A stretch of 64,000 nucleotides of DNA, from the NCBI GenBank assembly GCA_022791195.1, contig JAAVYP010000051.1, forward strand, positions 44,703 through 108,702, given 5' to 3'. Position 1 is the stretch's first letter. Every line of letters starts with the position of its first letter. Under the pieces are notes generated by a model. It was given only the letters and a program-made list of their open reading frames with translations, was not told where the DNA came from and searched no databases. The position numbers and the translations under genes are program-made. This stretch comes from Clostridiales bacterium (GTDB lineage Bacteria > Bacillota > Clostridia > Oscillospirales > CAG-272). Below are positions 11,824-25,992 of this stretch, one piece after another.

Positions 11824-11850
11824 GGTTTGATTGAGAGAGAGGTGACAAAA

Positions 11851-12036
11851 ATGCAGATGTGTCCTTTTTGTGACAAAGTATATGATGAATCCGAATACAG
11901 CCATTGCCCTTATTGTTCTGGGGAATTAGATGAAGATGACGAAGAAACAAGACCATGTCCTGAATGCGGTGGTTGTTTACACTGGGATGGCGATGAGTGG
12001 GTATGTTCCAACTGTGATTACGCAGAAGAAGACTAA
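11851..12036 (+). CDS. Small double zinc-ribbon protein (61 aa) with an acidic linker
   Basis: ATG at 11851 after GAGAGAGGTGA. Two CxxC...CxxC pairs (CPFC..CPYC; CPEC..CSNC) flank an EDDEE linker. Confidence 0.55.
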   Translation: MQMCPFCDKVYDESEYSHCPYCSGELDEDDEETRPCPECGGCLHWDGDEWVCSNCDYAEED

Positions 12037-12094: not shown

Positions 12095-12245
12095 TTTTCT
12101 TTGTCTACTGCGGCGCAGATTTTGACAGAGTGACCGAAACCGGTCACTCTGTCATTTTTTCTTTTTCCGCTTTGATTTGCGCCTTTACCTGAACGATCAT
12201 CCCCGCAAGCTTTTCTTCGCATTCCTCTCGCGTCTTAGCGTAAAT
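12095..12245. repeat. Direct repeat copy A (3' end of the 479-aa recombinase gene plus downstream hairpin)
   Basis: Aligns by eye with 22743-22891, roughly four-fifths identical, with two 1-nt indels. Confidence 0.8.
12124..12166 (+). terminator. Plus-strand hairpin plus T-tract embedded in the recombinase 3' end; likely terminates the zinc-ribbon transcript
   Basis: 13-bp stem GACAGAGTGACCG / CGGTCACTCTGTC followed by ATTTTTTCTTTTT on the plus strand. The recombinase stop codon lies inside the stem. Confidence 0.45.
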
Positions 12246-13583
12246 ATTATGGCTTTCGCGCTTGCCGTAGGCGTTGGTCGGCGTATACCGTCCTTCGTAT
12301 ATATGGTCGTTGATCATCGTTACACAACCTGTCCCAAGCTTGCGTATTTTGGGCGTATACGGCTTGAATTCGATCGGGGCGGTATCTTTCCTTGTCTGTT
12401 GATCAACCGTCGGCATTTGGGCGTCTGTGCCACCGATTTTGCGGTCAATCCGCACTGCCGCCTGCCTCTGCATCGTGTCGGTGATATGGCTGTAAATATC
12501 AAGCGTGGTTGCGGACGATACATGACCTATCGTAGCCGACAGCGTTTTCACATCCATACCGTGTTCCAACGCCATAGTCGCGAATGTGTGCCTGAGATCG
12601 TGGAAACGCACTTTTTTGCATCCTGCCCGTTCCAATATCAGTTGTAACCGCTTTCGGACAGACGACGGATTTCTCGGTCTGCTGTTATTCAGCGGTGACG
12701 GGAACATCCACTCCGAATCCACCGATTTTCTGTACTCCGCAAGTATCTTTACAAGTGACTGAGACAGTATCACCGTACGGACAGACGCCTTTGTTTTCGG
12801 CGCTGATATGATTACTTCTGCCTTGATAATATATACCTGCCGTTCGATGCGAAGCTCACCTGTTGAGAAGTTAAGATCGCTCCATTTGAGTGCCAGTATT
12901 TCACCTCGGCGCATTCCAGTACCAAGCTCCAACAAGAACAGTTCGTAATATCCCTCATCCTTTGCCTGATGAAGAAACCGCAGTATCGCATTTTGTGTCA
13001 GCACTTGCATCTCTCTCGCTTTTTTCGGCGGCAGTTTACAGCCGACAGCGGGATTTGTTCGGATCAGTCCGTCCTGCACTGCTCGCTGTAATGCTGTACG
13101 ACAATTGGCGTGTATCGCCCTTATCGTTCTGTCTGAAAGTCCCTTACCGAGTGTTTCGGTGTGCAGTTTTCTTCCGCCTGTCTTTTCCTTTGCATAGAAT
13201 TGCTGCAGATCGGATTGCGACAGCTTGTTCAGCGGAATTTTTCCGATTTCGGGAATAATGTGATTGTAGATGCGGTTTTCATAGTCGCTTTTTGTGGTGA
13301 TCCGAAGTGTGTGCCCGCAATAGGTCTGATACCAAAAGTCGATCCACTCACCGAATGGCATATCCGGCTTTATCTTTTCCGTGGCGCTGCCGTACTGTTC
13401 TTTCAGCGTTTCAAGCTTAGCGGCACATTCCGTTTTTGTTTTCGCCGTTACGCATTTCGTAATAGGCAGGCTTTTCTCATTGTACCCGACAACGATTCTC
13501 CCTTCCCAACGTCCGTCTTTGCGCAGGCGTAATGTGCCTTCACCGTTTTTTCGTTTTTTAGCTATTAGTATCATCTCCTTCAA
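12144..13583 (-). CDS. Tyrosine recombinase/integrase (479 aa) with a C-terminal extension that repeats the N-terminal arm-binding-like module
   Basis: Catalytic pattern MRRGE...HDLRHTFAT...IGHVSSATTLDIYSHI. N-terminus DGRWEGRIVVG...AKTKTECAAKL; C-terminus YEGRYTPT...AKTREECEEKL. Confidence 0.9.
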   Translation of the reverse strand: MKEMILIAKKRKNGEGTLRLRKDGRWEGRIVVGYNEKSLPITKCVTAKTKTECAAKLETLKEQYGSATEKIKPDMPFGEWIDFWYQTYCGHTLRITTKSDYENRIYNHIIPEIGKIPLNKLSQSDLQQFYAKEKTGGRKLHTETLGKGLSDRTIRAIHANCRTALQRAVQDGLIRTNPAVGCKLPPKKAREMQVLTQNAILRFLHQAKDEGYYELFLLELGTGMRRGEILALKWSDLNFSTGELRIERQVYIIKAEVIISAPKTKASVRTVILSQSLVKILAEYRKSVDSEWMFPSPLNNSRPRNPSSVRKRLQLILERAGCKKVRFHDLRHTFATMALEHGMDVKTLSATIGHVSSATTLDIYSHITDTMQRQAAVRIDRKIGGTDAQMPTVDQQTRKDTAPIEFKPYTPKIRKLGTGCVTMINDHIYEGRYTPTNAYGKRESHNIYAKTREECEEKLAGMIVQVKAQIKAEKEKMTE

Positions 13584-14733
13584 TCATAATTTCGTCCATA
13601 AAGTTACCCACAATGTTGGAAGCATTTTTTTGCATATCGGTGGTTACATGTGTATAGGTATCCAGTGTAAAGCTTGCATTTGTGTGACCTAAGATTCCCG
13701 AGAGCGTTTTCGCATCTACACCGCTTATTAATGCATGCGTTGCAAAGGTATGTCTGAGATCGTGAAAGCGTATCAGCGGAAGTTCGGCTTGCTTTAACAG
13801 CGTTTTTAATCGGTGATAAGCGTAGTCGGGATGCATCGGTTCTTCCGGCTTGTAGATATTCGGGAATATCCATTCACTAACTGATTTTTCTTTTCTCTTG
13901 CGCAAAAGCTCTGCCGTGCTCGGCGGAAGAAGAACTGTGCGTGTGCCTGTTGCGGTTTTTGTTTCGCCGACAGTAAGTCCTCCGCCTTTCTTTTTATGGA
14001 TCGCTCGCCTGATTTTTAATTTTCCCGTGTCAGCGTTAAAGTCTTCCCATCTGAGTCCGCAGATTTCACCTCGGCGCAGACCTGTTGTCAGCTCCGTATA
14101 GAAGAAACCGTACCACAGCTCATCCTGTCGGATTCGCTCCATAAATCTGTCAAGCTGTTCGTCATTCAAGATCTGCTTCGGTGCATAATTATTTTTCGGT
14201 ATTGTCGTTCCGTTTGTAGGATTTTTTATGATCAGCCGCTGTGTCACCGCCATATCCAACGCTTCATGCAACATCATATGTATCTTTCGAATCAAGCTGT
14301 CGGCAAGCTCTGTTCCGTGAAGTTTGTCTACTCTTACTCTGCCGTACTTTTTGACTGTGTTATAGAATTTTTGTATCTCCTGCGTGGACAGCGCCGACAG
14401 AGGCCTGTCGCCGAGATACGGCTTGATCTGATTTTTTATCATAGCCTTGTAAGCATCCAGCGTAGTTTCCCGAACCGTAAATATCATATATTCATTGATC
14501 CAACGGTCGAGCCATTCGCCGAGCGTCATATTGCAGTCATCGGTAAGATCGGCATCGCGGTACATCTCAATATGATCGTGCAGTTTTTTCATCAGTTCCT
14601 TTTGTGTCTTTGAAAGAACATATCGATGTATGGGATCACCGTTCTTTTTGTGACCAACAACGATTCTGCCTTCCCACCGTCCGTCGTCACGCTTTCGCAC
14701 CATTCCGTCGCCTGCTGGTCTTCGTTTTGCCAT
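13558..14733 (-). CDS. Tyrosine recombinase/integrase (391 aa)
   Basis: LRRGE...HDLRHTFATHAL...LGHTNASFTLDTYTHV. RBS AGAGAGGTGA. The 3' end overlaps the next recombinase by 26 nt. Confidence 0.9.
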   Translation of the reverse strand: MAKRRPAGDGMVRKRDDGRWEGRIVVGHKKNGDPIHRYVLSKTQKELMKKLHDHIEMYRDADLTDDCNMTLGEWLDRWINEYMIFTVRETTLDAYKAMIKNQIKPYLGDRPLSALSTQEIQKFYNTVKKYGRVRVDKLHGTELADSLIRKIHMMLHEALDMAVTQRLIIKNPTNGTTIPKNNYAPKQILNDEQLDRFMERIRQDELWYGFFYTELTTGLRRGEICGLRWEDFNADTGKLKIRRAIHKKKGGGLTVGETKTATGTRTVLLPPSTAELLRKRKEKSVSEWIFPNIYKPEEPMHPDYAYHRLKTLLKQAELPLIRFHDLRHTFATHALISGVDAKTLSGILGHTNASFTLDTYTHVTTDMQKNASNIVGNFMDEIMIEGDDTNS

Positions 14734-14921
14734 ATAGAATCACCTCTCTTTTCAACACAACATACCACAAAGGTTTTTAGATATCCAGCAACAATAAAAA
14801 GTTTATCAAAGAGTTCACAATCATTTGTAGATTGAGATTCAAAGTAGCAATCACTGTTAAAACCGCTGTAATATCGGCATTTATTCGCATAGCAACCTAC
14901 GATTTCCTCCATGCCATTTTC

Positions 14922-15025
14922 AGCAACCCACCCTGAAAAACAGAATAGAAATCGCTGAAAATGCCCACACGATCGGCATTGCCGTCCGTTGTTACTGCAG
15001 GGGGGAGCAACCGCAACCCACCCTG
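14922..15025. repeat. Two copies of a 13-nt direct repeat GCAACCCACCCTG (14922-14934, 15013-15025) inside a structured non-coding stretch
   Basis: Exact 13-mer seen twice, 91 nt apart. Extra GCAACC half-sites lie at 14891 and 15007. Inverted repeat CATTTTCAGC/GCTGAAAATG at 14912-14921/14955-14964. Confidence 0.6.
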
Positions 15026-15037
15026 CTTTCTCCTGCT

Positions 15038-15316
15038 TCACTCTAAATTCGGCATATCTTCCGCGTATGCCGCCATTTCCTCATAGGGATCGGGAAGCGG
15101 GTTGATTTTGCATCGCGGTACAAGCTCGTCCATCAGACTGTCAAAGCATTTGCAGCAAAATTTGAGATCAAGCTGATAACAGTCATACTTCGATCCGTAT
15201 CCGAAACGGTGACGGAAACAGAAATTTTCTTCCTCGTCCCACATATCAAATTTCTTTCCGCATAAGCTGCACTTTTTAACTAACCTCGCTCTGATTCTTT
15301 TTATCCTCATTTTCAT
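15038..15316 (-). CDS. Small Cys-rich hypothetical protein (92 aa)
   Basis: CSLCGKKF...CCKCFDS zinc-binding-like pairs. The start overlaps the stop of the upstream ORF (ATGA-type junction at 15313-15316). Confidence 0.5.
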   Translation of the reverse strand: MKMRIKRIRARLVKKCSLCGKKFDMWDEEENFCFRHRFGYGSKYDCYQLDLKFCCKCFDSLMDELVPRCKINPLPDPYEEMAAYAEDMPNLE

Positions 15317-15783
15317 ACCGCCTCCTGCTTTTTCTTTCGGTCATACCGTTCCAATTTCCTGATCGCTTTTTCATGCGCCTGCTGACAAGCAGCTCTCTGT
15401 AACTGCTGTTGCAAATACAAATTCTTTGCCTGTTCAACTGGCAGAATTGTATAGAGCAAATTGCCGTTGCGCTTCACTCCGCTTGCTGTTCGGACTTCCG
15501 TCGGCTCGGTTCGGATCAATTGCTTTTCCTCCAGACGCTTTACATATTTGCTCACCGTATTGCGTGACATCTTCGATGCGTCGCAGATCGTTCTGAAACT
15601 CGGATGGCATTTGAATGTTTTTCTGTCCTCACGGTAGAGCAGATATGCATAGACGGCGATCTCTCCATAGGAAAGATTCAGGCAGAAAATTTCATTTGGC
15701 AGAGGAAAATAATCTCTGATCGCATCGCGCTTTTGATAACAGTTGTACTTCAAATGCGGCCTCCTGTCTTTTCTTCGACCCAC
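15313..15783 (-). CDS. HTH DNA-binding protein, replication-initiator/regulator-like, of the mobile element
   Basis: Pattern FPLPNEIF...LSYGEIAVYAYLLY...MSRNTVSKYVKRLEEKQLI (winged-helix). Sits between the excisionase and recombinase genes. Confidence 0.6.
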   Translation of the reverse strand: MGRRKDRRPHLKYNCYQKRDAIRDYFPLPNEIFCLNLSYGEIAVYAYLLYREDRKTFKCHPSFRTICDASKMSRNTVSKYVKRLEEKQLIRTEPTEVRTASGVKRNGNLLYTILPVEQAKNLYLQQQLQRAACQQAHEKAIRKLERYDRKKKQEAV

Positions 15784-15959
15784 CTACTGAACTTTTCTTT
15801 TGGTACGATGAGACGTGAGCCGATACGAAGTGACGGAAATCCTTTTTCATGCATCAGCTCATAGCTGCTCGATATGGAAATACCGAGCAGCTTCGCCACC
15901 GTTTCTGCATTGAGAAACAGCGGCAGTTCATCGTAAGTGGTGTAAACAGATTCTTTCAT
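15750..15959 (-). CDS. Excisionase-family (MerR-like) HTH protein
   Basis: ATG at 15959 after GAAAGGAGG. Motif LNAETVAKLLGISISSSYELMHEKGFPSLRIGSRLIVPKEKF is typical of Xis-type HTH proteins. Confidence 0.7.
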   Translation of the reverse strand: MKESVYTTYDELPLFLNAETVAKLLGISISSSYELMHEKGFPSLRIGSRLIVPKEKFSRWVEEKTGGRI

Positions 15960-16288
15960 CAGGCTTGTGCCTCCTTTCAAATTCACACAGCTTTCCTGCC
16001 GTGTATGTATCAAATCAGGCTATTTTGCAAAACAAAAAAGACCTTACCTACATTTCATCACGGAAACACAAATAAAGCGGACAGGCGTTCGCTTAGGGGA
16101 ATGTTCCGTGCCTGAATATGTAAGTAAGATCTTTGCGATTCAATATGTACGGTTGCTCAGTGGCAACCTGTTAAGGTGGCACTTTATTCAATTGTGAGAT
16201 TAGTATAGCATAATTAAAAAAATTTGTCAAGGCTTTTGAATAAACTCAGAGGTTTACGGGAATACTATTTTATTTACCTGTTATTGAA

Positions 16289-16330
16289 AGAGAGAAGGCT
16301 GAACAGAATTAACGGCTCAGCCTTCTCTCT
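16289..16330 (-). terminator. Strong hairpin immediately 3' of the 93-aa ORF (possible terminator, no clear U-tract)
   Basis: 14-bp stem AGAGAGAAGGCTGA / TCAGCCTTCTCTCT. Confidence 0.4.
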
Positions 16331-16335
16331 CAAAT

Positions 16336-16617
16336 TCAATCTTCTTTATCGGACGGTTCATGCATCACTTCTATCATGATTCTTGTTGCAAGCTTGAAAC
16401 CGCTGATGAACGCCTCAAGCTCATTCATTCCGTGCAGCTCCGATTCGCAGTCCTTGAGCTTCTCAAAGATTTCTTTCTGCTGTTCGGTGAGCGTTGGTAT
16501 CAAATCATCCTGATGCCGGACGATATATCCTAACACTTCGCTGTATGCACTCCCTCGCTGAAAACTATGCTCATTAGGAATGATGTTGCCGTAATACAGA
16601 TCTTCAAGCGTTGTCAT
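16336..16617 (-). CDS. Small hypothetical protein common in Clostridial mobile elements (93 aa)
   Basis: RBS GAGGTGGG. Sequence LEDLYYGNI.P.E...EQQKEIFEKL. No function can be assigned. Confidence 0.55.
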   Translation of the reverse strand: MTTLEDLYYGNIIPNEHSFQRGSAYSEVLGYIVRHQDDLIPTLTEQQKEIFEKLKDCESELHGMNELEAFISGFKLATRIMIEVMHEPSDKED

Positions 16618-16626
16618 CGTCCCACC

Positions 16627-16851
16627 TCACAAAGAAGAGGACGACACATCATCGGTCATACCCGATATCGTGTCGCCCTCTTGTCTCATTTTTTCTGCCG
16701 CAATTAACGCATGCTTTACAAGCAACATGTCAACCCACGTCCGCTCGTCGCACTCTGACGGTCGCCCGTCTTTCAGATACTCTGCCATCGCCGCACTCAT
16801 CACATCATACTTTTCTCCGCTGTAAATTTCAGCTATGCTTATCTGTGCCAT
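16627..16851 (-). CDS. Small hypothetical protein (74 aa)
   Basis: ATG at 16851 after AAAGGAGG. The track start at 16917 lacks an RBS. Confidence 0.5.
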   Translation of the reverse strand: MAQISIAEIYSGEKYDVMSAAMAEYLKDGRPSECDERTWVDMLLVKHALIAAEKMRQEGDTISGMTDDVSSSSL

Positions 16852-16933
16852 ATCCGCACCTCCTTTGCAGTACACAACAGTACCACAGGAAGAGGCGGAA
16901 GTCCAGAGAAAATACAATTTTTAGCATAGAAGA

Positions 16934-18817
16934 CTAATCAACATCATAAAAAACTAAACCGTCGGGGAATTTTATATTAGGAATCCAAATCTCTTTTCCC
17001 TCCCATCCCTTAGTACCTGTAACTTTATACATTGTTAACGATACTTGATCGGTTATTTTTGAAACCAGCGCACGATCATTAGGAGATAACAATGTTCCTG
17101 TTCCTTTTGCAATATCTCGGCCTCTTCTAACAATCAAAACTCCCTGTCTAGAGGGATCTTCTGATATATAGGAATTCAAGAAAGATAAATATGATTTCTT
17201 ATTCCAATCACCTTTTTCGCTATCAATCATTTGGATAATTTGATAAATCAATTGAAGGTTCACAGAATAGCCTTCGTTTTCGCTAAAAGCTGACAGAATA
17301 TTGTCAATTTGGGAAATGTCATCATTGGTTGGATAAAATGGAAAATAACTTACTCCGCCTACGAGCATATTCAAATGTGAATGATCAAGTACATTCTTCC
17401 TAGTTGGACGTAAAGTTTTCGGATAATACATTTTAATATCATCCGCGTTTTTTGCTTTCTTAATTTGATTAATAATGGAATTGTTAGTTTTATTAATCTC
17501 GCTAAACCGTTTAATTAATAACGGAGGCATGAAGACTCGCACAAGTCCTGGATCTCTATCGTATCCAAACATTCTCGAGTGCTGCCACATCGTATCTGCC
17601 TGAGGATTTTTAGCAACTCTGCAATAATATATTGTTTGAAGCATGGGGAAAGTAATGCCTCTTCCCAAACTATTGCCGCCCACAACTATATTGAGCCCTG
17701 TTTCATATCGTATGTTTTCATCATAAGAAGCTTTTGAATTGATAACCAAAACATTAATTTGATCGTTTTCAAGTGCTTCCTTTATGTATGAGTAAATGTC
17801 ATCAAACGGTGCAATATCCGGCTTTGTAGTTTTGAAATTTTCGTATGTTTGCTGTAATGTTTCAATAGTACAATCTTCGTCAATAGAAAGATTCAATTCA
17901 TTTAAATATTCTCCAATTTTATTAGCGAACTTTTGATGTTCAGAAACTTTAACGCTTGGATGAACAACAAAGTTACTAACTTGAGAACCATTAAGAAACA
18001 AATGCGCGGATGATACCAAGTGCATTAATAACGCTTGTTTTAATCCGTTTTCAGGAAATTCATCATCTGATAAAAGCTCTTTTCCTTCATCATTGTCTGT
18101 CGGTATGACATACGGACAGTTCTCATCAGAAAAGAAAAAGTCACCTCCAAGATATCCTGCTCCGGGCTCAAAATAATATATAAACGCGGGTTTCCATCCG
18201 GCAATTTTAGTTTGCAACAATAAAGACTGCGGGGTACCTGTCACTTGTAAATAAATGCTGCTAGCGCTTGTTTTCTTGATAGCGTTAAGAGTTCTATTTA
18301 TTGCACTTACATCCTTTTGATTAACTTTGGTATTAGGACTGGCTGCATCTGCCTCATCATCAACAATAAATAGAGGATTGCCTGCGCAGAAATTTGTAGA
18401 ACTAAAATTGTTTTTCCACTGTTTCAGAACATGAACATTCTTCTTCAATACGATCAACACAGGCTTTTTCAATGCATTGGCTTGAAAACGAATATAGTCA
18501 TTTTCTCCGCACACACAAAATGTATCCAAATCGGCAAGAGCGCGTTTAAATGTTTGTTCTTGTAACAATGTGTTATCAGTTGTTAGCAATACAAAAATAT
18601 TAAAACCTTCATCCGCAGCAGCGGCAATAAGTCCAAACATATGGCTTGTTTTTCCGCTTTGTACATTTCCCATAAGGAGACTAACAATATGCTCTCGATA
18701 TGAAAAGTTTGAAATATATTGAGGTACAATATCATTAATCGTTTTCTTCACAGCATCCGCAAGTGATGCTCTGTTTCGTTGTAATAATTCGTTTATGTAA
18801 TTTTCTGCGTGACTCAT
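16934..18817 (-). CDS. Z1-domain SF2 helicase-like ATPase (H/N subunit of a CglI/NgoAVII-like restriction enzyme)
   Basis: Walker A GNVQSGKT, DEAD-like IVDDEADAAS, TGTP, GGNSLGRGITF. The ATG at 18817 overlaps the nuclease stop as ATGA, with GGAGTGAG upstream. Confidence 0.8.
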   Translation of the reverse strand: MSHAENYINELLQRNRASLADAVKKTINDIVPQYISNFSYREHIVSLLMGNVQSGKTSHMFGLIAAAADEGFNIFVLLTTDNTLLQEQTFKRALADLDTFCVCGENDYIRFQANALKKPVLIVLKKNVHVLKQWKNNFSSTNFCAGNPLFIVDDEADAASPNTKVNQKDVSAINRTLNAIKKTSASSIYLQVTGTPQSLLLQTKIAGWKPAFIYYFEPGAGYLGGDFFFSDENCPYVIPTDNDEGKELLSDDEFPENGLKQALLMHLVSSAHLFLNGSQVSNFVVHPSVKVSEHQKFANKIGEYLNELNLSIDEDCTIETLQQTYENFKTTKPDIAPFDDIYSYIKEALENDQINVLVINSKASYDENIRYETGLNIVVGGNSLGRGITFPMLQTIYYCRVAKNPQADTMWQHSRMFGYDRDPGLVRVFMPPLLIKRFSEINKTNNSIINQIKKAKNADDIKMYYPKTLRPTRKNVLDHSHLNMLVGGVSYFPFYPTNDDISQIDNILSAFSENEGYSVNLQLIYQIIQMIDSEKGDWNKKSYLSFLNSYISEDPSRQGVLIVRRGRDIAKGTGTLLSPNDRALVSKITDQVSLTMYKVTGTKGWEGKEIWIPNIKFPDGLVFYDVD

Positions 18818-19875
18818 CTTCTCACTCCAAAATCTATGTACCATTTATCAGATTGTTCTAACTTTGTTAATGTGAAACTTGTTCGACCGTAGCGTACTAA
18901 CGTTTCTTGCATTACAGGTTCACCAACTCTTAATACACCAGCGTTTTCAAGACGGCCTTTTATCCATTTCCCTAAAATTTTCAGGTCATTTTCAGATCTG
19001 AAATTTTTGTTGTTTTGTCCACTAACTTTACATGAAAATTCCCATCCGTCATCAGTTATAACATTGAATACAGCATCCTCGGTTCTGCTAATCGGATAAT
19101 TCGGAAGTGTTGCAATTTCCGCAGGTACGATCAATTCAATCTCATACCAATGTCTTGGCATAATTAAACCATTTGGAGTTCTTCGTCCCTCACCAAAAAA
19201 TACATTCAAATTACTTCTAGGCGCAACCTCGTATCCTTTTAGCGGAATTTCAAAACTAATATTTGACAAATGATTTCGATAAGCTTCTACATCCGGTTCA
19301 GATATTTTCCGAACATGTTCATGATTTTCGAGAAGCGGATTGGCATTTCTGAATTCAGTTATTTCTATATTCGAAATAACATCCGATGATCTTGCGCTTA
19401 AATCAGCAATAAAACCATTAAGCTGATTAACTATAGGCTGCTGAGAAACAAGAATAGCCGATTCATAAGTTCTATGTCCGCTGTCTATGATGCTACTCAA
19501 ATTATTCGAGCCAATTATACCGCTTTGTGCATTACCGTTTTGATTCACAAATGAATAAAGTTTTCCGTGGTACATGAAAGTGGTTACCAAATTAACTTGT
19601 CCGATATGATTTTCTCGCAAAAATGAATTGAGATCGAGAGCGGCATTGTATTCCAAAGCTGTAAATTTTTCAAAATAATGCATGCCGATTGTAAGATTCA
19701 TTCTGTGAATATCATTTTGTTCTACCATTCCTTTTAATTCAGTTAAAGAATCAGCTGTTATATATCCAACCGAAATATCTGCACCTTTATGAATTTGTAA
19801 CTGTTCATAAAAACATTCAGAAAACTTTCTAAATGGCGTTCTCATTGGCGGTAAGTTCGAAAACAACAACTCCAT
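18814..19875 (-). CDS. PLD-family (NgoFVII-type) restriction endonuclease with a C-terminal B3-like DNA-binding domain
   Basis: Single HKD motif (YHGKLYSF...GIIGSNNLS). The C-terminal beta-rich domain (WYEIELIV...WEFSCKVSGQNNKNFRS) is laid out like BfiI/NgoAVII. Confidence 0.75.
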   Translation of the reverse strand: MELLFSNLPPMRTPFRKFSECFYEQLQIHKGADISVGYITADSLTELKGMVEQNDIHRMNLTIGMHYFEKFTALEYNAALDLNSFLRENHIGQVNLVTTFMYHGKLYSFVNQNGNAQSGIIGSNNLSSIIDSGHRTYESAILVSQQPIVNQLNGFIADLSARSSDVISNIEITEFRNANPLLENHEHVRKISEPDVEAYRNHLSNISFEIPLKGYEVAPRSNLNVFFGEGRRTPNGLIMPRHWYEIELIVPAEIATLPNYPISRTEDAVFNVITDDGWEFSCKVSGQNNKNFRSENDLKILGKWIKGRLENAGVLRVGEPVMQETLVRYGRTSFTLTKLEQSDKWYIDFGVRR

Positions 19876-19888
19876 AATATGATACCTC

Positions 19889-20992
19889 TTACTTCATTTC
19901 ATTATTAATGCGCTCCAAGCGTTCTTGTACGGATAATTCTTTTAGTTCCTCATATTCTTTTTCTAAATCAACACGCTTATATTCATCTGTAAATAGCGGC
20001 ATCAATCTCTTTGCAACAAGACGTACTCCTTCAGGCGGAACAGCATTACCAATTTGCCTGCGTACCTCTGTAATATTACCTGCAAATACGAAATCATCGG
20101 GAAAAGATTGTAATCTCGCTCTTTCTCGGTTTGTAAGAGGACGAGGCTCTGGATAATGATATCCCCATGTTCCTCCACCACCGGCAGCAATAATTGTTTT
20201 TGCAGGTTCATTTCGGTTTATACGGCGATAAACATGACTTATCATACCTTTGACATATAACGGACTGTCTTTAGGTATATCTGTAAAATTGCCTCCCTCC
20301 GGAATTAATTCTAACATTTGACGTGTTTTTTCTTTGCAGCCCAACGGCTCATTGTTAAAAGGTACTTTCTCAACATCTTTAAGTGCTTCGCCTGCGGTAA
20401 AATATGGTTTGTTTGTACTTGGACCGCATATTGGTTTTGGATGTACAAAATTAAAACCGGTGTCTTTTCGTATTCCAACTATCAAAACTCGTTCTCTAAA
20501 TTGAGGTACACCATATTCTGCAAAATTGTACAAATGCGGCTTGACAATATACCCAGGTGCAATTGTTTCGAAATCCTTGATAATAACATCGATAGCCTTT
20601 CCTTTGTTTGCAGTAAGCAATCCTTTAACATTTTCTGCAACAAAAGCCTTCGGCTTTTTTGCATCAACAAACTCCGCAAAATGACGGAACAAACCGCCGC
20701 GTTTTCCATTTAACCCCGGTTGCTTCCAGATAATTGAGAAGTCTTGACAAGGAAAACCTCCTAAAACCAAATCGCATTCCGGGATATCTTTGTCTTGGTA
20801 TGGGTTTATTTGAGTAATATCTCCGTGAACAATTACATTTCCAAAATAATTAGCAAATGATTGACAAGCCCATTCAGAAAAGTCGTTTGCCCATACTGTA
20901 TCATATCCTTCCAAATGAAATCCAAGATCTAATCCTCCGCAGCCGGAAAACAAAGAAATAACTTTTGGTTTGTTATTGTTGCTTATAACCAT
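19889..20992 (-). CDS. DNA (cytosine-5) methyltransferase
   Basis: Motif I FSGCGGLDLGF, IV GGFPCQDFS, VI ENVKGL, VIII QFRERVLIVG, X GNAVPP. Confidence 0.92.
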   Translation of the reverse strand: MVISNNNKPKVISLFSGCGGLDLGFHLEGYDTVWANDFSEWACQSFANYFGNVIVHGDITQINPYQDKDIPECDLVLGGFPCQDFSIIWKQPGLNGKRGGLFRHFAEFVDAKKPKAFVAENVKGLLTANKGKAIDVIIKDFETIAPGYIVKPHLYNFAEYGVPQFRERVLIVGIRKDTGFNFVHPKPICGPSTNKPYFTAGEALKDVEKVPFNNEPLGCKEKTRQMLELIPEGGNFTDIPKDSPLYVKGMISHVYRRINRNEPAKTIIAAGGGGTWGYHYPEPRPLTNRERARLQSFPDDFVFAGNITEVRRQIGNAVPPEGVRLVAKRLMPLFTDEYKRVDLEKEYEELKELSVQERLERINNEMK

Positions 20993-20993
20993 T

Positions 20994-21425
20994 TTAAATA
21001 CCTCTTCCTGTTTGTAAAGATCTTTCTATTAACTCGACACATCTATCAGTTTCTTTTAATATTTCAGTTTCCCAAAATCTATGAACAATCCAGCCTTGTT
21101 CTTCTAAGGTCTGAGTCACTTCTATATCACGTTCAATGTTGCGCTTGATTTTTTGTTTCCAATATGAAGAATTTGTTCCTATTCGATCAACGCAAGCATG
21201 ATAATCCTTTCCGTGCCAAAATTCACTATCGCAAAACACGGCCACTCTTTTACTGATAAAAACTATATCTGGTTTTCCGATAAGTTTTTTGTAGTTTTTT
21301 CTATATCTATAGCCTTTTGCCCATAGCGCCTTTCGCAGAACAACTTCGATTTTACTATCTTTTGACCGAATTGCTTGCATATTCTTTTTTCTCTGCTCAG
21401 GAGTGTGATTATCCACATTAATCAC
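20994..21425 (-). CDS. vsr: Very-short-patch repair endonuclease
   Basis: MQAIRSKDSKIE..., GKPDIVF, FCDSEFWHG. The stop is 1 nt from the methyltransferase start. Confidence 0.88.
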   Translation of the reverse strand: MINVDNHTPEQRKKNMQAIRSKDSKIEVVLRKALWAKGYRYRKNYKKLIGKPDIVFISKRVAVFCDSEFWHGKDYHACVDRIGTNSSYWKQKIKRNIERDIEVTQTLEEQGWIVHRFWETEILKETDRCVELIERSLQTGRGI

Positions 21426-21476
21426 CCCCTTACATTAACTATAGTATCACAACTGATGTCCCATAAAACGTACTTA

Positions 21477-22343
21477 CTATATTTTGGAAAAATATTCTTC
21501 ATCAATTTCATAGTCCTTTATCTCTCTTACACCAATACCGTATTCAGCCAACTTAGTCATAAACTCTTCGCCGTCAATTAAATCTATTTGCTGTTTTCCA
21601 GGATTGCTAGCTTCTTCGATAGCTGGCTTCGAAAAAGATCCTGTTGTTATAAAAACTCCTTTTTCAATATCAGTTGTCAGAGAACCGCGAAAATCTCTTA
21701 TCTCGGCAGCACCAACAGACCCTTGATAACGCTTGCACTGAAACGCTATATTAAAACTAAAAATACCGTTAATTCTTAATTTTCCAGTTCCGTCAATGCC
21801 TCCGTCTCCGGATTTTTTAGTAACATGTACATCATCGAATCCACATTCTCTTAAGAGTCTTTGAGAAAGCTTTTCAAAAGAATATGGATTCATTTGAATT
21901 AATACTTCATATAACTTTTTTCGCCACGGTTTAATTTCATCAGGTAAATCTAAGCCACTATTTTCGAGTTGGTCATCTGAAATTTCCGGAAAACTATTAG
22001 GCTTGGCTCTTTGATGAAAATTCTTTTGAATATATAACCCGTCAACAGACTTTTTATTTGAAAAATTTGGTGTTATTGTCCAAACACTTCTTGCGCTATT
22101 GGCAATTGCACCATAGTTTTTTAACAGTGTTCTAGCCCATGCTAATCTATAATGAATTTCAGACAAACTTGTACTGTTAAGGTGAGGAATATCTAAAATT
22201 TCATCTGACAATTTTAAGCCTGAAATTGCTTTTGCGTTGATTTCATCGTTTTTCCCCGAACCTCCAAGATCTCTTAGCGCAACATATGTTGCCTCCACAA
22301 GCTGAGCATATGTCGGCATCTGTATATTTTCGTTTTGTTTCAT
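21477..22343 (-). CDS. mrr: Mrr-family Type IV (modification-dependent) restriction endonuclease
   Basis: N-terminal Mrr_N-like winged helix; C-terminal catalytic core GDGGIDG...QCKRY. Confidence 0.85.
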   Translation of the reverse strand: MKQNENIQMPTYAQLVEATYVALRDLGGSGKNDEINAKAISGLKLSDEILDIPHLNSTSLSEIHYRLAWARTLLKNYGAIANSARSVWTITPNFSNKKSVDGLYIQKNFHQRAKPNSFPEISDDQLENSGLDLPDEIKPWRKKLYEVLIQMNPYSFEKLSQRLLRECGFDDVHVTKKSGDGGIDGTGKLRINGIFSFNIAFQCKRYQGSVGAAEIRDFRGSLTTDIEKGVFITTGSFSKPAIEEASNPGKQQIDLIDGEEFMTKLAEYGIGVREIKDYEIDEEYFSKI

Positions 22344-22349
22344 TTACAA

Positions 22350-22571
22350 CTACCTCGCAATATTCTTGTTTGAAACTATTTCTACGATATCATCCATTTT
22401 ACAATCAAGTGCGGTACATATCTTTACCAGTACATCGCTGCTGACAACAGCGCCGTCCTTTCCCATCTTAGTGATGGTAGCGATGCTGATGCCGGCTTTT
22501 TCGGCGAGTTCTTTCTTTTTCATATCACGGTCGATCAAAAGCTTGAACAATTTTTTATAGCTTGCGGCCAT
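22350..22571 (-). CDS. XRE/Cro-type HTH regulator (73 aa), first gene of the defence operon
   Basis: MKKKELAEKAGISIATITKMGKDG. The stop is 6 nt from the mrr start. Confidence 0.8.
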   Translation of the reverse strand: MAASYKKLFKLLIDRDMKKKELAEKAGISIATITKMGKDGAVVSSDVLVKICTALDCKMDDIVEIVSNKNIAR

Positions 22572-22623
22572 TGTATTACACCTCGTAAGTCGTTATAGTC
22601 AGTGCATTGTATCACTAATATAT

Positions 22624-22652
22624 AGCATACCACACACTCCGTTGAATTTCAA
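22624..22652 (-). promoter_or_regulatory. Promoter of the HTH-mrr-vsr-MTase-R-H operon, with a palindrome over the -35
   Basis: On the minus strand: TTGAAA, 17 nt, TATGCT with an upstream TG. The perfect palindrome GTTGAATTTCAAC (22641-22653) overlaps the -35. Confidence 0.5.
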
Positions 22653-22742
22653 CAGCTTTCGGCAGATAAATCCTGCGATTGCAGTATTTATCGACTTTTT
22701 GTTGCAAATACACCATTCCATTTCTTGTACTTTCATATTCCC

Positions 22743-22891
22743 TTTTCTTTGTCTACTGTGTCGCATATTGTGACAGGGTACTGAAAACAGTCACCCTGTC
22801 ATTTTTCTTTTCCCGCTTTGATGTGAGCCTTGATCTGCACAATCATTTCCGCAAGTTTTTCTTCACACCCCTCTTGCGTCTTGGCGTAAAT
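22743..22891. repeat. Direct repeat copy B
   Basis: Aligns with 12095-12245. The hairpin is retained with a compensatory change (GAG/CTC in copy A vs GGG/CCC in copy B). Confidence 0.8.
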
Positions 22892-22895
22892 TTTT
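22799..22895 (-). pseudogene. 3'-terminal remnant (about 30 codons) of a second, related tyrosine recombinase
   Basis: Translates to IYAKTQEGCEEKLAEMIVQIKAHIKAGKEK*, versus IYAKTREECEEKLAGMIVQVKAQIKAEKEKMTE* in the intact gene. Nothing homologous lies upstream of it. Confidence 0.75.
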
Positions 22896-22901
22896 ATTTC
22901 C

Positions 22902-23548
22902 CTAATATGTTATCCGGTGTGAAATAAACACTGCTGAGCATCCTACGGTCAGCTCGTGATAGCTCTGATAAATCTCGCTCTCCGCAATCAGGTCAAGCGC
23001 TGCGGTGGGCTCATCGAGAATTAACACAGGCGCATCCTTATACAGCGCACGGGCAAGTATCAGGCGCTGGGGCTGTCCGCCTGAAAGTTCTATGCCGTCC
23101 ACGTGTACCGTCCTGCCGAGATAATGATCATAACCGTTCATAAACATGAACACCCAATTCACAAAGTCGGTGATAGCATGAAAGTACAATAAAAAACTCA
23201 GATACCGCCCAGCCGTCATCGTGACGAGATACGCATAAGATATACCGTTGCGGAGCAGGAAAAGCAACTGGTCTAAAACTTTGACCGCTAAATACCGCGC
23301 CTTTATCCTGCGGAAAAATGCGCGGTATAACCCAATCGTGCGTTCATAAATGCCCATAAGCCATGCCTGCAAACCAAAGATGCGAATATCCTTCGCCATC
23401 GCAATATTTTGTGAACATTCGAGCACATATCGTAACTCGCCCCTTCTGCATTCTGCCGATACTCCCAGTCATTTACCCGCTACGCAAACGAAAAAATATG
23501 TACCGTATTCTGCCACAGATTATATTTAGATATTTTTAGATTTTTCAC
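22902..23548 (-). pseudogene. Decayed ABC exporter (fused TMD-NBD type): N-terminal 22 codons, stop, internal deletions, truncated C-terminus
   Basis: AAGGAGG plus GTG gives MKNLKISKYNLWQNTVHIFSFA*. A later frame reads ...KDIRIFGLQ...LSGGQPQRLILARAL...LILDEPTAALD...FISHR. There is no Walker A, only about 200 codons remain where a full-length fused exporter would be several-fold longer, and it ends at the junction with the recombinase remnant. Confidence 0.75.
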
Positions 23549-23649: not shown

Positions 23650-25335
23650 TTATTTTAAGTTAGATTCATTTTCGAATTTTCTTAATACAACGCGGTGATT
23701 ATCTGTATCTGATATAAAAAACATACCATCTATTCCTGGACACAGCCAACGAGGTATTGATAATTTTTTATCATCCAAACCGCGTCCTTCTCCGAAAATA
23801 TATTTTATATGACTTGCATCGTGATTGCAAACATAGATCTGTGAAGTACCGCTATTAACAATATATAAATATTCATCATTCATCAACATCATACGCGGCT
23901 TTTTAAGACATACTTCTTCGTTTTTATACATAAACTTTTGTATAACAGTAACCTCGTTGTCCTGAATAAGCAGCCCACGATTATTGCCTGTATCAGATAT
24001 TAAGATTCGATTGCCGCTTAAAAATTGGGCGTGATGAATATCTCTCATATGTAACTGCAAATCCTGCGTCGACCAAATTATCTCTTCAGTATTTATATCG
24101 AATAAAATCACCTCTGTTTCAAAGGCTATTAACATAATATTCCAATGTAAATCAACAGCTTGTATCCATTGATTTGGCAAAAAGTTTGATGGAATATCGA
24201 TCTTTTGTTTTATTTTATAATACTGATCCAGAATAACGATATTTCGCAAAACACTGTTTGCAACGATTAAATCATTCTCCAACCACTTAACACAGCGGGG
24301 CCAGTGCAAACCGGGAATGACAGATTCATTAATCGTTTCAATGATTTCACCCTCCATATTGAAAACAAGTATTTGATCATGATATGTATCTGCCACAGCT
24401 AAAAGTTGCTTTGACGGCGAGTAATCACACGCCCGGGGAAAATTCATTTTTGATTCGATTATGACAGGCCGGCCATAATAATCTTCCACATTTTTACCAT
24501 CATCCGTTACTTTTCTTATATATATATTGGCGCCTTTACACATGACAACAAAGAGACTGTCATTGATAAATACAGCTTGCGGCGCCCACAAAAAAGAAGT
24601 GTCACAACCAACGTGATTTGTCACTCCAAATTGATGAACTATTTTATTCGTAAAGTAATCTACTATAATAATTCGGTGAGATCTTTGTTCCGAAATCACC
24701 ACAAAATCCCCTTTTTTGATAGCATTTACAGGTACACTTAATTGATTTGGTAAACTTCCGGGCGTATTGAATTCACCATATTGCCAGTATATATGCAGTG
24801 AACTGTCAATGAGACGAACCGTACTATTTGAACTATCCGTAATTAAAAATCTATCATCAAGTTTTTGTACAAAATACGGTTCAATTGCATGAATCATTAG
24901 TAAGTCTAAATCCAGTGTAATGCCAAAGTCGTCTTTTGAGATAACCAATAATCGCGCCGGCTGCATAGTTATTATTATTTCATTTTCGGTTTCAGTCAAA
25001 AAAAGAGGTTTGTTATTTTTGTATTTCTCAAAAATAATTGTTCGCAATAATGCATTGTTCTGGTATACGACCAGTTTTAACGGCTTACTGCACAAATAAT
25101 ATATCTGATTATCAAAACATGATTCAAGTTGTGCAACTATATTTTTTTCATTTGAAGCTGTGCTCTCAACATACCCTTTATCAATATGTATAGTGTTACT
25201 GAAACCATGAGCAAATTCTTCGCGAAAAACAAATTGATTTTTACTATTTACTCCACAGAATTTTATATATCCATTAAACTGTTCTTTCACCTTCTGAACT
25301 GGATATACAACACCAAAATCACATTCTAACATCAT
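23650..25335 (-). CDS. Cytoplasmic NHL-repeat beta-propeller protein (561 aa) with an unassigned N-terminal region of about 150 aa
   Basis: NHL-like blades (VADTYHDQILVF, ISDTGNNRGLLI, FISDTDNHRVVL). No signal peptide or TM helix. Intact long ORF in very AT-rich DNA. Confidence 0.7.
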   Translation of the reverse strand: MMLECDFGVVYPVQKVKEQFNGYIKFCGVNSKNQFVFREEFAHGFSNTIHIDKGYVESTASNEKNIVAQLESCFDNQIYYLCSKPLKLVVYQNNALLRTIIFEKYKNNKPLFLTETENEIIITMQPARLLVISKDDFGITLDLDLLMIHAIEPYFVQKLDDRFLITDSSNSTVRLIDSSLHIYWQYGEFNTPGSLPNQLSVPVNAIKKGDFVVISEQRSHRIIIVDYFTNKIVHQFGVTNHVGCDTSFLWAPQAVFINDSLFVVMCKGANIYIRKVTDDGKNVEDYYGRPVIIESKMNFPRACDYSPSKQLLAVADTYHDQILVFNMEGEIIETINESVIPGLHWPRCVKWLENDLIVANSVLRNIVILDQYYKIKQKIDIPSNFLPNQWIQAVDLHWNIMLIAFETEVILFDINTEEIIWSTQDLQLHMRDIHHAQFLSGNRILISDTGNNRGLLIQDNEVTVIQKFMYKNEEVCLKKPRMMLMNDEYLYIVNSGTSQIYVCNHDASHIKYIFGEGRGLDDKKLSIPRWLCPGIDGMFFISDTDNHRVVLRKFENESNLK

Positions 25336-25559
25336 TTCCCCACACTCCTATCCAATTTTGATTTTGTCTTATTAGCGCAAATAAGACAGCGCCCCACTTT
25401 CATTAAGGCGCCTCTTACTTTTTGATAATTAAGATACTCTGCAAAACTTTTAATTTTATCAACAAACACGATCCCGTCTAAAGTGTTAAGACATACTTTA
25501 TTTGAATCAAATGAGATTACAGTTGCAAACATAAAATCACTTATTAACTCTCCAATCAC
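25332..25559 (-). CDS. Small hypothetical protein (66-75 aa), translationally coupled to the NHL gene
   Basis: The stop overlaps the NHL start as ATGA. Start is either GTG at 25559 or ATG at 25532. No recognisable motif. Confidence 0.45.
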   Translation of the reverse strand: MIGELISDFMFATVISFDSNKVCLNTLDGIVFVDKIKSFAEYLNYQKVRGALMKVGRCLICANKTKSKLDRSVGK

Positions 25560-25940
25560 TTCTATATTTTAAAATTCAACACTTCACAAAGACTCTTGAT
25601 CCATAAGTTTTTTTGATTAAACAAAACATCCATGCGTTAAGTGGGGGTTCAGGTGGGAAACATGTTAACGCATTTGCACTTTAAAAATAAATCTGTATAT
25701 TTTTCTAATAATAGATTACTATATTTTAGTGTATTTGTCAACAACTTTTTTGTTTTTAGTCACAAAAAATACATTTTTATAAGTATATTTTTCACAAAAC
25801 CGTATCATTTGATACAATGATTGTTTTTCGACAAAATTCCCGTAAATCGATTTCTTCGTGTAATTAAATTTAGATATCGCCAAACTGTCTAATAAAAATA
25901 AGATTAAATCTATATATTATTTTATGATGGTTCCGAAAAT

Positions 25941-25978
25941 ACAAAAAGGCAGAGAGTAAAAACTCTCTGCCTTTTGTT
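25941..25978 (-). terminator. Intrinsic terminator of the MBL hydrolase gene
   Basis: Stem AAGGCAGAGAG / CTCTCTGCCTT followed on the minus strand by TTTTTGTATTTT. Confidence 0.7.
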
Positions 25979-25992
25979 CGATCTGATGATTA

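What the first reader, a model, noticed from the sequence alone, without database searches (positions are those of the whole stretch)
16934..21425. CglI/NgoAVII-like ATP-dependent restriction system: C5-MTase + Vsr + PLD/B3-like nuclease translationally coupled to a Z1-domain SF2 ATPase
The sequence shows a canonical m5C methyltransferase and a Vsr whose stop is 1 nt from the MTase start. It also shows a single-HKD PLD nuclease with a beta-rich C-terminal domain, whose stop overlaps (ATGA) the start of a 627-aa protein with GKT, DDEAD, TGTP and GRG helicase motifs. As I recall, the only characterised enzymes with this R (PLD+B3-like) plus H/N (helicase+Z1) composition are CglI and NgoAVII. Those need both proteins and ATP hydrolysis and recognise a short GC-rich site. 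This is a divergent Clostridial member carried on a mobile island; its specificity and mechanism are unknown.
Basis: partly seen in the sequence, partly recalled or inferred. Interest (0 to 1): 0.55.

Follow-up and report, generated by a model that had tools for sequence, protein, structure and literature searches.

The report
NgoAVII/CglI-type ATP-dependent restriction-modification operon
This is an intact copy of a known class of bacterial restriction system, in which a nuclease needs a helicase-like motor and ATP to cut; it sits on a small mobile island in a gut Clostridiales genome and is already annotated at family level, so it is an ordinary find.

Summary
On the minus strand, 16934-21425 holds four tightly packed genes: Vsr, a C5-cytosine methyltransferase (M), a PLD+B3-like nuclease (R) and a DEAD-Z1 ATPase (H). 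R and H overlap by ATGA.

- **Domains:** all four pass curated Pfam cut-offs.
- **Nuclease:** R matches the crystal-structure sequence of R.NgoAVII over its full length (E 2.4e-70).
- **Motor:** H is 41% identical to N.NgoAVII end to end and keeps every DEAD-Z1 motif.
- **Methylase:** M is 68% identical to M.NgoAVII. That is closer than the two characterised GCSGC methylases are to each other (62%).
- **Key residues:** the catalytic and named DNA-contact residues of R.NgoAVII are conserved here. Seven of nine are invariant in 121 family members; the two phosphate-clamp lysines are nearly so.
- **Selection:** dN/dS against an [Eubacterium] siraeum copy is 0.03-0.11.

I therefore predict an R2H2, ATP-driven enzyme that cuts next to unmethylated GCCGC, with GCSGC methylation protecting the host. 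Specificity and activity are inferred, not shown.

The family is large: about 1,000 R clusters, and M-R-H is conserved across Firmicutes. GenBank already calls this R an "NgoFVII family restriction endonuclease". BceSIV and Bce14579I are also characterised relatives. This is a new member of a known kind, of low interest.

The parts
16934..18817 (-). H (N) subunit: DEAD-Z1 helicase-like ATPase with a CglI-type C-terminal domain, 627 aa
   Evidence: Pfam Z1 2.5e-31. PADLOC Helicase_II 6.4e-233 over the full length. 41% identity to N.NgoAVII over 627 aa, E 8e-169. The C-terminal domain matches PDB 6F1S, E 1.9e-15. Motifs present: GNVQSGKT, DDEAD, TGTP, H/H (HPSVKVSEH), GRGIT, QHSR.
18814..19875 (-). 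R subunit: N-terminal PLD nuclease (single HxK) plus C-terminal B3-like DNA-recognition domain, 353 aa
   Evidence: Pfam RE_NgoFVII 1.1e-28 and RE_NgoFVII_C 3.5e-40. PDB 4RCT (R.NgoAVII) 2.4e-70. Active-site and DNA-contact residues are conserved. The stop overlaps the H start as ATGA.
19889..20992 (-). C5-cytosine DNA methyltransferase, predicted GCSGC-specific, 367 aa
   Evidence: Pfam DNA_methylase 1.2e-77. TIGR00675 231 bits. 68% identity to M.NgoAVII over 362 aa including the variable region.
20994..21425 (-). Vsr very-short-patch T:G mismatch endonuclease (likely start is the GTG at 21416, 140 aa)
   Evidence: Pfam Vsr 2.3e-30. TIGR00632 142 bits against a cut-off of 97.85. Its stop is 1 nt before the M start.
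21477..22343 (-). Mrr-family (Mrr_N + Mrr_cat) putative Type IV modification-dependent endonuclease; conserved neighbour, not part of the NgoAVII-type core
   Evidence: Pfam Mrr_cat 3.7e-29 and Mrr_N 3.3e-10. PADLOC mREase_IV 1.7e-23. Syntenic in L001-L008. dN/dS 0.044.
22350..22571 (-). Small Cro/C1-type HTH protein, 6 nt upstream of Mrr; possible regulator of the block
   Evidence: Pfam HTH_26 3.5e-17. Syntenic in L001-L008.
12095..22894 (.). About 10.8-kb integrative island carrying the system. It is bounded by imperfect direct repeats and contains two tyrosine recombinases, an HTH_17 excisionase-like gene, an HTH_36 gene and DUF6809.
   Evidence: Direct repeats 12095-12248 and 22743-22894, 83-86% identical. 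Integrases and HTH genes. Homology to the E. siraeum island spans 12116-22588 only. GC is 36-37% across the RM block, against 44-47% on the integrase side and further out.

Best explanation
This is an orthologue of the NgoAVII/CglI class of ATP-dependent restriction-modification systems, carried as cargo on a small tyrosine-recombinase island in a gut Clostridiales bacterium.

Shown here: a Vsr-M-R-H operon with intact, purifying-selected genes. Each core protein is a full-length homologue of the NgoAVII protein in the same position, and every motif that was mutationally shown to matter in CglI or NgoAVII is present.

Inferred by homology:
- M methylates C5 of a cytosine in GCSGC on host DNA.
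- R dimerises through its PLD domains to form one active site, and reads GCCGC with the N- and C-arms of its B3-like domain.
- R cannot cut alone. It assembles with H, probably as R2H2, which is consistent with the conserved R/H translational coupling.
- ATP hydrolysis by the DEAD-Z1 motor drives translocation along dsDNA from an unmethylated site. Communication between complexes then licenses strand cleavage 6-7 nt downstream of the site.
- Vsr nicks T:G mismatches that arise when the m5C made by M deaminates, which offsets the mutagenic cost of the methylase.

The upstream HTH-Mrr pair is most likely an independent Type IV module that travels in the same island.
For: - **Domain hits:** Pfam and PADLOC matches.
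- **Solved structures:** R against 4RCT, E 2.4e-70 over residues 4-349; H C-domain against 6F1S, E 1.9e-15.
- **Direct comparison:** the N. gonorrhoeae DSM 9188 locus, whose R is 100% identical to the 4RCT sequence, has the same M-R-H order. Identities are M 68%, R 40%, H 41%, all end to end.
- **Methylase calibration:** M.CglI and M.NgoAVII share only 62% identity, yet both recognise GCSGC (PMC4267653).
- **Key residues in R:** PLD active-site positions 104, 106, 124 and 137 are identical in the window. So are DNA-contact positions 212, 241, 243, 275 and 285, which include the arginine that reads the central G. All are invariant in 121 aligned family members except the two phosphate-clamp lysines, 212 and 275, which are nearly invariant (119 and 120 of 121).
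- **Recognition arms:** the N-arm is 67% and the C-arm 71% identical, against 40-43% for the whole protein.
- **H motifs:** H carries the family-specific Q-variant Walker A, DDEAD, the H/H motif, the motif V arginine and the short QxxR motif VI. These are the features defined and mutated in PMC5861437.
- **Selection:** dN/dS is 0.03-0.11 for Mrr, Vsr, M, R and H against L001.
- **Synteny:** M-R-H is conserved with an R/H overlap of 1 or 4 nt in Clostridium formicaceticum, Paenibacillus crassostreae and metagenomic loci.
Against: - No activity, methylation or specificity data exist for this locus; everything mechanistic is homology transfer.
- R and H are only about 40% identical to the characterised enzymes.
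- Only five of the nine base-contacting residues of R.NgoAVII could be identified from the text of the structure paper. The rest are in a figure that is not held.
- Relatives such as BceSIV read GCWGC, so the central-base preference can shift within the wider family.
- GCSGC is not avoided in the window (197 sites against 114 expected). This neither supports nor contradicts the predicted site.
Confidence: 0.88

Rival explanations
1. The architecture and mechanism are the same, but the recognition sequence differs from GCCGC/GCSGC (for example GCWGC as in BceSIV, or another short GC-rich site).
For: R is only 40% identical to R.NgoAVII. The structure paper itself warns that base contacts of B3-like domains are hard to predict from sequence. 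BceSIV in the same family reads GCWGC. Some arm positions differ, for example Ngo 228-231 RDKR against RTPN in the window.
Against: M is 68% identical to M.NgoAVII through the variable region with only small gaps. That is higher than the 62% shared by two methylases of identical specificity. The arginine reading the central G (R285) and the acidic pair at positions 241 and 243 are invariant in 121 sequences.
Confidence: 0.15
2. The six genes HTH-Mrr-Vsr-M-R-H form one functionally integrated defence module. The Mrr-type enzyme would be regulated with, or would back up, the ATP-dependent enzyme, rather than the two being independent neighbours.
For: All six genes are syntenic and under purifying selection in the E. 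siraeum-type island, which was seen in hundreds of contigs. HTH and Mrr are 6 nt apart, and Mrr to Vsr is only about 50-60 nt.
Against: The M-R-H core occurs without Mrr or HTH in Neisseria, C. formicaceticum, Paenibacillus and other loci. Vsr changes position or is absent. Clustering of independent defence genes in islands is common (established knowledge).
Confidence: 0.2
3. The locus is an inactive remnant, or only the methylase works (an orphan methylase plus decaying R/H).
For: Restriction genes on mobile islands are often inactivated. No expression or activity data are available.
Against: All reading frames are full length relative to NgoAVII. All catalytic motifs are intact. dN/dS is 0.035 for R and 0.044 for H at dS of 0.6-1.0.
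Confidence: 0.05
4. R is a stand-alone BfiI-like Type IIS nuclease, and the Z1 ATPase belongs to a different system (for example an MZA-like one).
For: R shares the BfiI architecture of PLD plus B3-like domains (PMC4267654). H gives weak partial hits to MzaC.
Against: The MzaC score is 61.5 bits against a cut-off of 1500. H aligns end to end with N.NgoAVII and with PADLOC Helicase_II at 6e-233. The R/H overlap is conserved across the family. The PDB search with R returned only NgoAVII, not BfiI.
Confidence: 0.02

Closest known systems
NgoAVII RM system of Neisseria gonorrhoeae (M.NgoAVII / R.NgoAVII / N.NgoAVII; PDB 4RCT, 4RD5)
   Same: - The M-R-H gene order and protein lengths match: 367/353/627 aa here against 374/345/629 aa.
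- Homology is full length: M 68%, R 40%, H 41%.
- The PLD active-site residues, the named B3 DNA-contact residues and all DEAD-Z1 motifs are identical.
- R and H are tightly juxtaposed in both.
   Different: - The Neisseria locus sits between radA-like and hemE genes, with no Vsr, Mrr, HTH or integrase nearby.
- The window copy is preceded by Vsr, which is translationally linked to M, and by an HTH-Mrr pair, and it rides on an integrative island.
- R and H overlap by 4 nt here and are merely adjacent in Neisseria.
- The host is a low-GC Firmicute rather than a proteobacterium.
CglI RM system of Corynebacterium glutamicum (cglIM / cglIR / cglIIR; H C-domain PDB 6F1S)
   Same: - The three-component architecture is the same.
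- The H C-terminal domain is homologous (E 1.9e-15).
- Equivalents of the functionally tested residues are present: Walker B D158/E159, H282/H290, R379, Q405/R408.
- Both are carried on mobile DNA; CglI lies in prophage CGP3.
   Different: The full-length CglI proteins could not be fetched, so identity was measured only for the C-domain. The carrier element is a prophage in one case and a small integrase island in the other.
BceSIV / Bce14579I of Bacillus cereus
   Same: A PLD-family nuclease plus an ATPase that need ATP or GTP for cleavage. They are Firmicute members of the same family, as described in PMC4267653.
   Different: BceSIV recognises GCWGC and is reported to cut on both sides of the site. 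The window R keeps the arginine that reads a central G:C pair.
BfiI (stand-alone Type IIS PLD + B3-like endonuclease)
   Same: The R-subunit domain architecture and the single shared active site in a PLD dimer.
   Different: BfiI needs no ATPase partner and recognises ACTGGG. The sequence search of the PDB with the window R did not retrieve it.

Membership tests
NgoAVII/CglI-type ATP-dependent RM system | Three adjacent co-oriented genes in the order methyltransferase, PLD nuclease (R), DEAD-Z1 ATPase (H/N) | tested here: met
   Window genes at 19889-20992, 18814-19875 and 16934-18817, all on the minus strand. The order is the same as in N. gonorrhoeae locus L009 and in L024-L027.
NgoAVII/CglI-type ATP-dependent RM system | [quoted passage not shown] | tested here: met
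   PF09565 at 100 bits and PF20731 at 137.5 bits, both against a cut-off of 23.8. Match to 4RCT at 2.4e-70 over residues 4-349.
NgoAVII/CglI-type ATP-dependent RM system | PLD active-site residues equivalent to NgoAVII positions 104 (H), 106 (K), 124 and 137 (E) | tested here: met
   The window has H103, K105, N125 and E138. All four columns are invariant in 121 sequences.
NgoAVII/CglI-type ATP-dependent RM system | H has a DEAD N-core with the Q-variant Walker A and DDEAD; a Z1 C-core with the H/H motif, the motif V arginine and the short QxxR motif VI; and a CglI-type C-terminal domain | tested here: met
   Motif positions found by regex in both the window H and N.NgoAVII. Z1 at 109 bits against a cut-off of 25. 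The C-domain matches 6F1S. The motif definitions come from PMC5861437.
NgoAVII/CglI-type ATP-dependent RM system | Cognate m5C methyltransferase specific for GCSGC | tested here: inconclusive
   M is 68% identical to M.NgoAVII across the whole protein, against 62% between the two characterised GCSGC enzymes. The methylated site itself cannot be measured here.
NgoAVII/CglI-type ATP-dependent RM system | R recognises GCCGC through the N- and C-arms of the B3-like domain | tested here: inconclusive
   Residues equivalent to K212, 241, 243, K275 and R285 are identical. The arms are 67% and 71% identical. The other four base-contacting residues are known only from a figure that is not held.
NgoAVII/CglI-type ATP-dependent RM system | DNA cleavage requires an R-H complex (R2H2) and ATP hydrolysis, and occurs 6-7 nt downstream of the site | not testable with these tools
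   This is a biochemical property. Only the conserved R/H translational coupling speaks to co-expression.
Vsr very-short-patch repair endonuclease | Full-length match to the Vsr family model above the curated cut-off | tested here: met
   TIGR00632 at 142.3 bits against a cut-off of 97.85. PF03852 at 104.7 bits against 27.
Mrr-type Type IV restriction endonuclease (neighbour gene) | Mrr_N winged-helix domain plus Mrr_cat PD-(D/E)xK domain | tested here: met
   PF14338 at 40.4 bits (cut-off 29.5) and PF04471 at 101.6 bits (cut-off 21). Modification dependence is not testable here.
MZA anti-phage system (MzaC) | Full-length match to the MzaC equivalog model | tested here: not met
   NF041933 scores 61.5 bits against a cut-off of 1500, and the match is limited to the Z1 region.
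BfiI-like stand-alone Type IIS PLD nuclease | A PLD-B3 nuclease that acts without an ATPase partner | tested here: not met
   An H gene overlaps the R stop codon, and it is conserved with R across the family. BfiI was not retrieved by the sequence search.

The most novel reading that the evidence does not exclude
The conserved HTH-Mrr-Vsr-M-R-H block is a coordinated two-layer module in which three functions are co-regulated by the small HTH protein. An ATP-dependent enzyme attacks unmethylated GCCGC. An Mrr-type enzyme attacks foreign methylation patterns. A Vsr repairs the damage caused by the system's own methylase. The block travels as the fixed cargo of a tyrosine-recombinase island that also has a swappable slot, occupied by a SIR2 gene in the E. 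siraeum copies. Alternatively, the Clostridial clade may have a cleavage geometry or site that differs from NgoAVII and CglI.
Probability: 0.15. Interest if true: 0.4.

Novelty: new member of a known kind. Interest (0 to 1): 0.18.

Why it matters
It matters mainly for annotation. The locus can be labelled with confidence as an NgoAVII/CglI-type ATP-dependent RM system with predicted GCCGC/GCSGC specificity. That is relevant to anyone trying to transform these gut Clostridiales or model phage-host barriers in them: DNA would need GCSGC methylation or site removal.

It also shows that this class, which has been studied in four strains, is abundant in gut Firmicutes and moves on small integrase islands together with Mrr and Vsr. 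It opens no new mechanistic question beyond those already posed for CglI.

Tried and rejected
- **Site avoidance as a test of specificity.** GCSGC occurs 197 times in the window against 114 expected from shuffles. There is no avoidance, so this is uninformative, probably because of codon effects.
- **Retrieving the exact source contig.** I tried to retrieve it through the exact H and R protein sequences. Neither is in that index. The exact-sequence cluster look-up did place R, M, Mrr and PolC in an NCBI 'Clostridiales bacterium' MAG.
- **The full list of nine base-contacting residues of R.NgoAVII.** No supplement is held for the structure paper, and the residues appear only in a figure. Only five named positions could be checked.
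- **Plasmid and phage collections.** Sixteen plasmid records match at 28-42% identity, though two of them are 2.17-Mb N. gonorrhoeae records, apparently chromosomes. Two unannotated faecal phage contigs match at about 31%. None is close, and this added nothing to the interpretation.
- **MzaC/MZA membership.** Considered and rejected.
- **The upstream ATG at 18844 as the H start.** Considered and rejected in favour of 18817.
Full report
**Observation**

The interval 16934-21425 contains four consecutive minus-strand ORFs:
- a 143-aa ORF at 20994-21425;
- a 367-aa ORF at 19889-20992;
- a 353-aa ORF at 18814-19875;
- a long ORF ending at 16934.

I read the junctions directly from the sequence:
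- The first ORF ends in TAA, followed by one base and then the ATG of the second.
- The second is followed by a 13-nt spacer carrying GAGG and then the ATG of the third.
- The TGA of the third overlaps an ATG as ATGA, with GGAG upstream, which gives a 627-aa product.

The mechanical ORF list extends this last ORF to an in-frame ATG at 18844. All relatives, however, are called at 627 aa with the same 4-nt overlap. The alignment to N.NgoAVII begins at residue 7 of the 627-aa form.

The first ORF more probably starts at the GTG at 21416 (140 aa). That codon lies 8 nt after AGGGGG and matches the 140-aa calls in relatives.

**Identity of the four proteins**

Pfam gives these matches, all far above the curated cut-offs:
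- Vsr, 2.3e-30;
- DNA_methylase, 1.2e-77;
- RE_NgoFVII (PLD domain, 1.1e-28) plus RE_NgoFVII_C (B3-like domain, 3.5e-40);
- Z1, 2.5e-31.

NCBIfam confirms Vsr (TIGR00632, 142 bits against a cut-off of 97.85) and dcm. The PADLOC models derived from REBASE categories match at full length: 'Type II helicase domain protein' at 6.4e-233, 'REase_II' at 2e-100 and 'MTase_II' at 6.8e-118.

Against solved structures, R matches R.NgoAVII (4RCT) at 2.4e-70 over residues 4-349. The last 157 residues of H match the CglI H-subunit C-terminal domain (6F1S) at 1.9e-15.

**Direct comparison with a characterised system**

Using the R.NgoAVII sequence, I fetched the N. gonorrhoeae DSM 9188 locus (L009). Its R is 100% identical to the crystal-structure sequence. 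It is flanked by a 374-aa methylase upstream and a 629-aa ATPase downstream. This is the M-R-N arrangement described for NgoAVII (PMC4267653).

The window proteins align end to end with these:
- M: 68% identity over 362 residues, including the variable region.
- R: 40%.
- H: 41% over the full length, E 8e-169.

For calibration, M.CglI and M.NgoAVII share 62% identity and both recognise GCSGC.

**Functional residues in R**

The structure paper names four groups of residues:
- the active site of the PLD dimer, at positions 104, 106, 124 and 137;
- the clamp lysines K212 and K275;
- R285, which reads the central G;
- two acidic residues at 241 and 243, which contact the central C through water.

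All of these are identical in the window protein: H103, K105, N125, E138, K213, E245, E247, K283 and R293. In an alignment of 121 family members all are invariant, apart from three substitutions at the two clamp lysines. The N-arm is 67% identical to NgoAVII and the C-arm 71%, against 40-43% for the whole protein.

**Functional residues in H**

H carries each feature that PMC5861437 defines for the DEAD-Z1 motor, most of which the authors tested by mutation:
- the Q-variant Walker A (GNVQSGKT, residue 50);
- DDEAD (residue 153);
- TGTP (residue 193);
- the H/H motif (HPSVKVSEH, residue 286);
- the motif V arginine (GRGIT, residue 385);
- the short QxxR motif VI (QHSR, residue 412).

All of these sit at positions matching N.NgoAVII.

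M shows the canonical PCQ, ENV, QxRxR and GNAVPP motifs in the translation.

**Are the genes alive?**

I compared the window with the [Eubacterium] siraeum-type copy (L001), where the block is 86-90% identical at the nucleotide level. dN/dS is 0.044 for Mrr, 0.11 for Vsr, 0.030 for M, 0.035 for R and 0.044 for H, at dS values of 0.44-0.98. This is strong purifying selection on every gene.

**How common is it?**

The homology searches returned 1,067 R clusters and more than 4,500 Z1-ATPase clusters at E <= 1e-10.

Relatives with H 77-96% and R 72-93% identical occur in hundreds of gut-metagenome contigs and E. siraeum MAGs. Relatives at 55-65% identity occur across Clostridia and Paenibacillus, with source names such as 'NgoFVII family restriction endonuclease' and 'Z1 domain-containing protein'.

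The exact R, M and Mrr proteins of the window are GenBank entries from a 'Clostridiales bacterium' MAG. There, R (MCI8332267.1) is already named 'NgoFVII family restriction endonuclease'.

The M-R-H core recurs in Clostridium formicaceticum, Paenibacillus crassostreae and other metagenomic loci, with an R/H overlap of 1 or 4 nt. Vsr is absent from two of these loci and lies downstream, as a tandem double domain, in another. The Neisseria locus has no Vsr or Mrr nearby.

**Context**

Immediately upstream lie a Cro/C1-type HTH gene (22350-22571) and an Mrr_N+Mrr_cat gene (21477-22343). They are syntenic with the RM genes in all eight E. siraeum-type loci.

Downstream of H are:
- a small unassigned ORF;
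- DUF6809;
- an HTH_17 (excisionase-like) gene;
- an HTH_36 gene;
- another small unassigned ORF;
- two tyrosine recombinases.

Homology to the E. siraeum island covers window 12116-22588 only. That island carries an extra 3.9 kb (a 206-aa gene and a 767-aa SIR2_2 gene) between H and the DUF6809 region, which the window lacks.

The window element is bracketed by imperfect direct repeats at 12095-12248 and 22743-22894, which are 83-86% identical. The second repeat encodes only the last ~30 codons of a related integrase and abuts a truncated ABC-ATPase ORF. A tRNA-Pro gene lies at 11700-11775.

GC is 36-37% across the RM block, against 44-47% on the integrase side of the island and further out.

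**Mechanism**

By homology with CglI and NgoAVII (PMC4267653, PMC4267654, PMC5737866, PMC5861437), the most likely mechanism is as follows.
1. M methylates GCSGC on host DNA.
2. An R dimer with one shared PLD active site binds unmethylated GCCGC through its B3-like domains.
3. R is inactive without H.
4. An R2H2 complex burns ATP to translocate on dsDNA.
5. One-dimensional communication between complexes activates cleavage 6-7 nt downstream of the site.
6. Vsr repairs the T:G mismatches left when the methylase's m5C deaminates.

The gene content, homology, motif conservation and selection are shown here. The stoichiometry, ATP dependence, site and cut position are inferred.

**Comparison and novelty**

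The locus meets every sequence-testable defining feature of the NgoAVII/CglI class and fails none. It differs from the prototypes in three ways: the host phylum, the carriage of Vsr (translationally linked to M) and an HTH-Mrr pair, and its location on a small integrase island.

BceSIV and Bce14579I of B. cereus were also characterised, with GCWGC reported as the BceSIV site.

This is a new, uncharacterised member of a known and populous kind that is already annotated at family level. Interest is low (0.18). The main residual uncertainty is the exact specificity, which I put at about 0.8 for GCCGC/GCSGC.

Noticed in passing
window 21477-22571 (-): A 73-aa Cro/C1-type HTH gene lies 6 nt upstream of a 288-aa Mrr_N+Mrr_cat gene, a putative Type IV endonuclease. 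Both sit directly upstream of Vsr-M-R-H. They are syntenic and under purifying selection in E. siraeum-type islands. An Mrr-type enzyme next to an m5C methylase implies the two are compatible.
   Followed up: partly
window 12095-12248 and 22743-22894: An imperfect direct repeat of about 150 bp (83-86% identity, spacing 10,647 bp) brackets the island. The second copy is only the last ~30 codons plus the terminator hairpin of a related tyrosine integrase. This suggests tandem insertion or recombination between related elements rather than a simple target duplication.
   Followed up: partly
L001-L007 11970-15744, against window 16919-16941: In E. siraeum-type copies of the island, a 206-aa gene and a 767-aa SIR2_2 gene (about 3.9 kb) sit between H and the DUF6809 region. 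The window lacks them, so this looks like a variable defence-cargo slot.
   Followed up: no
window 22902-23426 (-): A 174-aa ORF matches only the last ~45 positions of the ABC_tran domain. It looks like a truncated ABC-transporter ATPase gene abutting the island border.
   Followed up: no
window 11700-11775 (+): The only tRNA or Rfam hit in the window is tRNA-Pro (TGG). It lies about 320 bp from the integrase end of the island, separated from it by a 69-aa zinc-ribbon ORF (11827-12036).
   Followed up: no
window, whole: GCSGC occurs 197 times against 114 +/- 10 expected from dinucleotide shuffles. The predicted target site is enriched rather than avoided.
   Followed up: no
window 23650-26000: This is the lowest-GC stretch of the window (32-37%). 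It holds a 561-aa protein with a single weak NHL-repeat hit and small ORFs. It may be further foreign DNA next to the island.
   Followed up: no
L026/L027 7893-8732: In another clade of the family, the gene after H is a 279-aa protein with two Vsr domains in tandem.
   Followed up: no
L009 5992-7029 (R.NgoAVII), against the text of PMC4267654: The paper's text writes D124, D241 and D243. The N. gonorrhoeae sequence, which is 100% identical to the sequence of PDB chain 4RCT_A over the 338 residues reconstructed from the hmmer alignment, has N124, E241 and E243. The positions fit, but the residue letters differ.
   Followed up: partly
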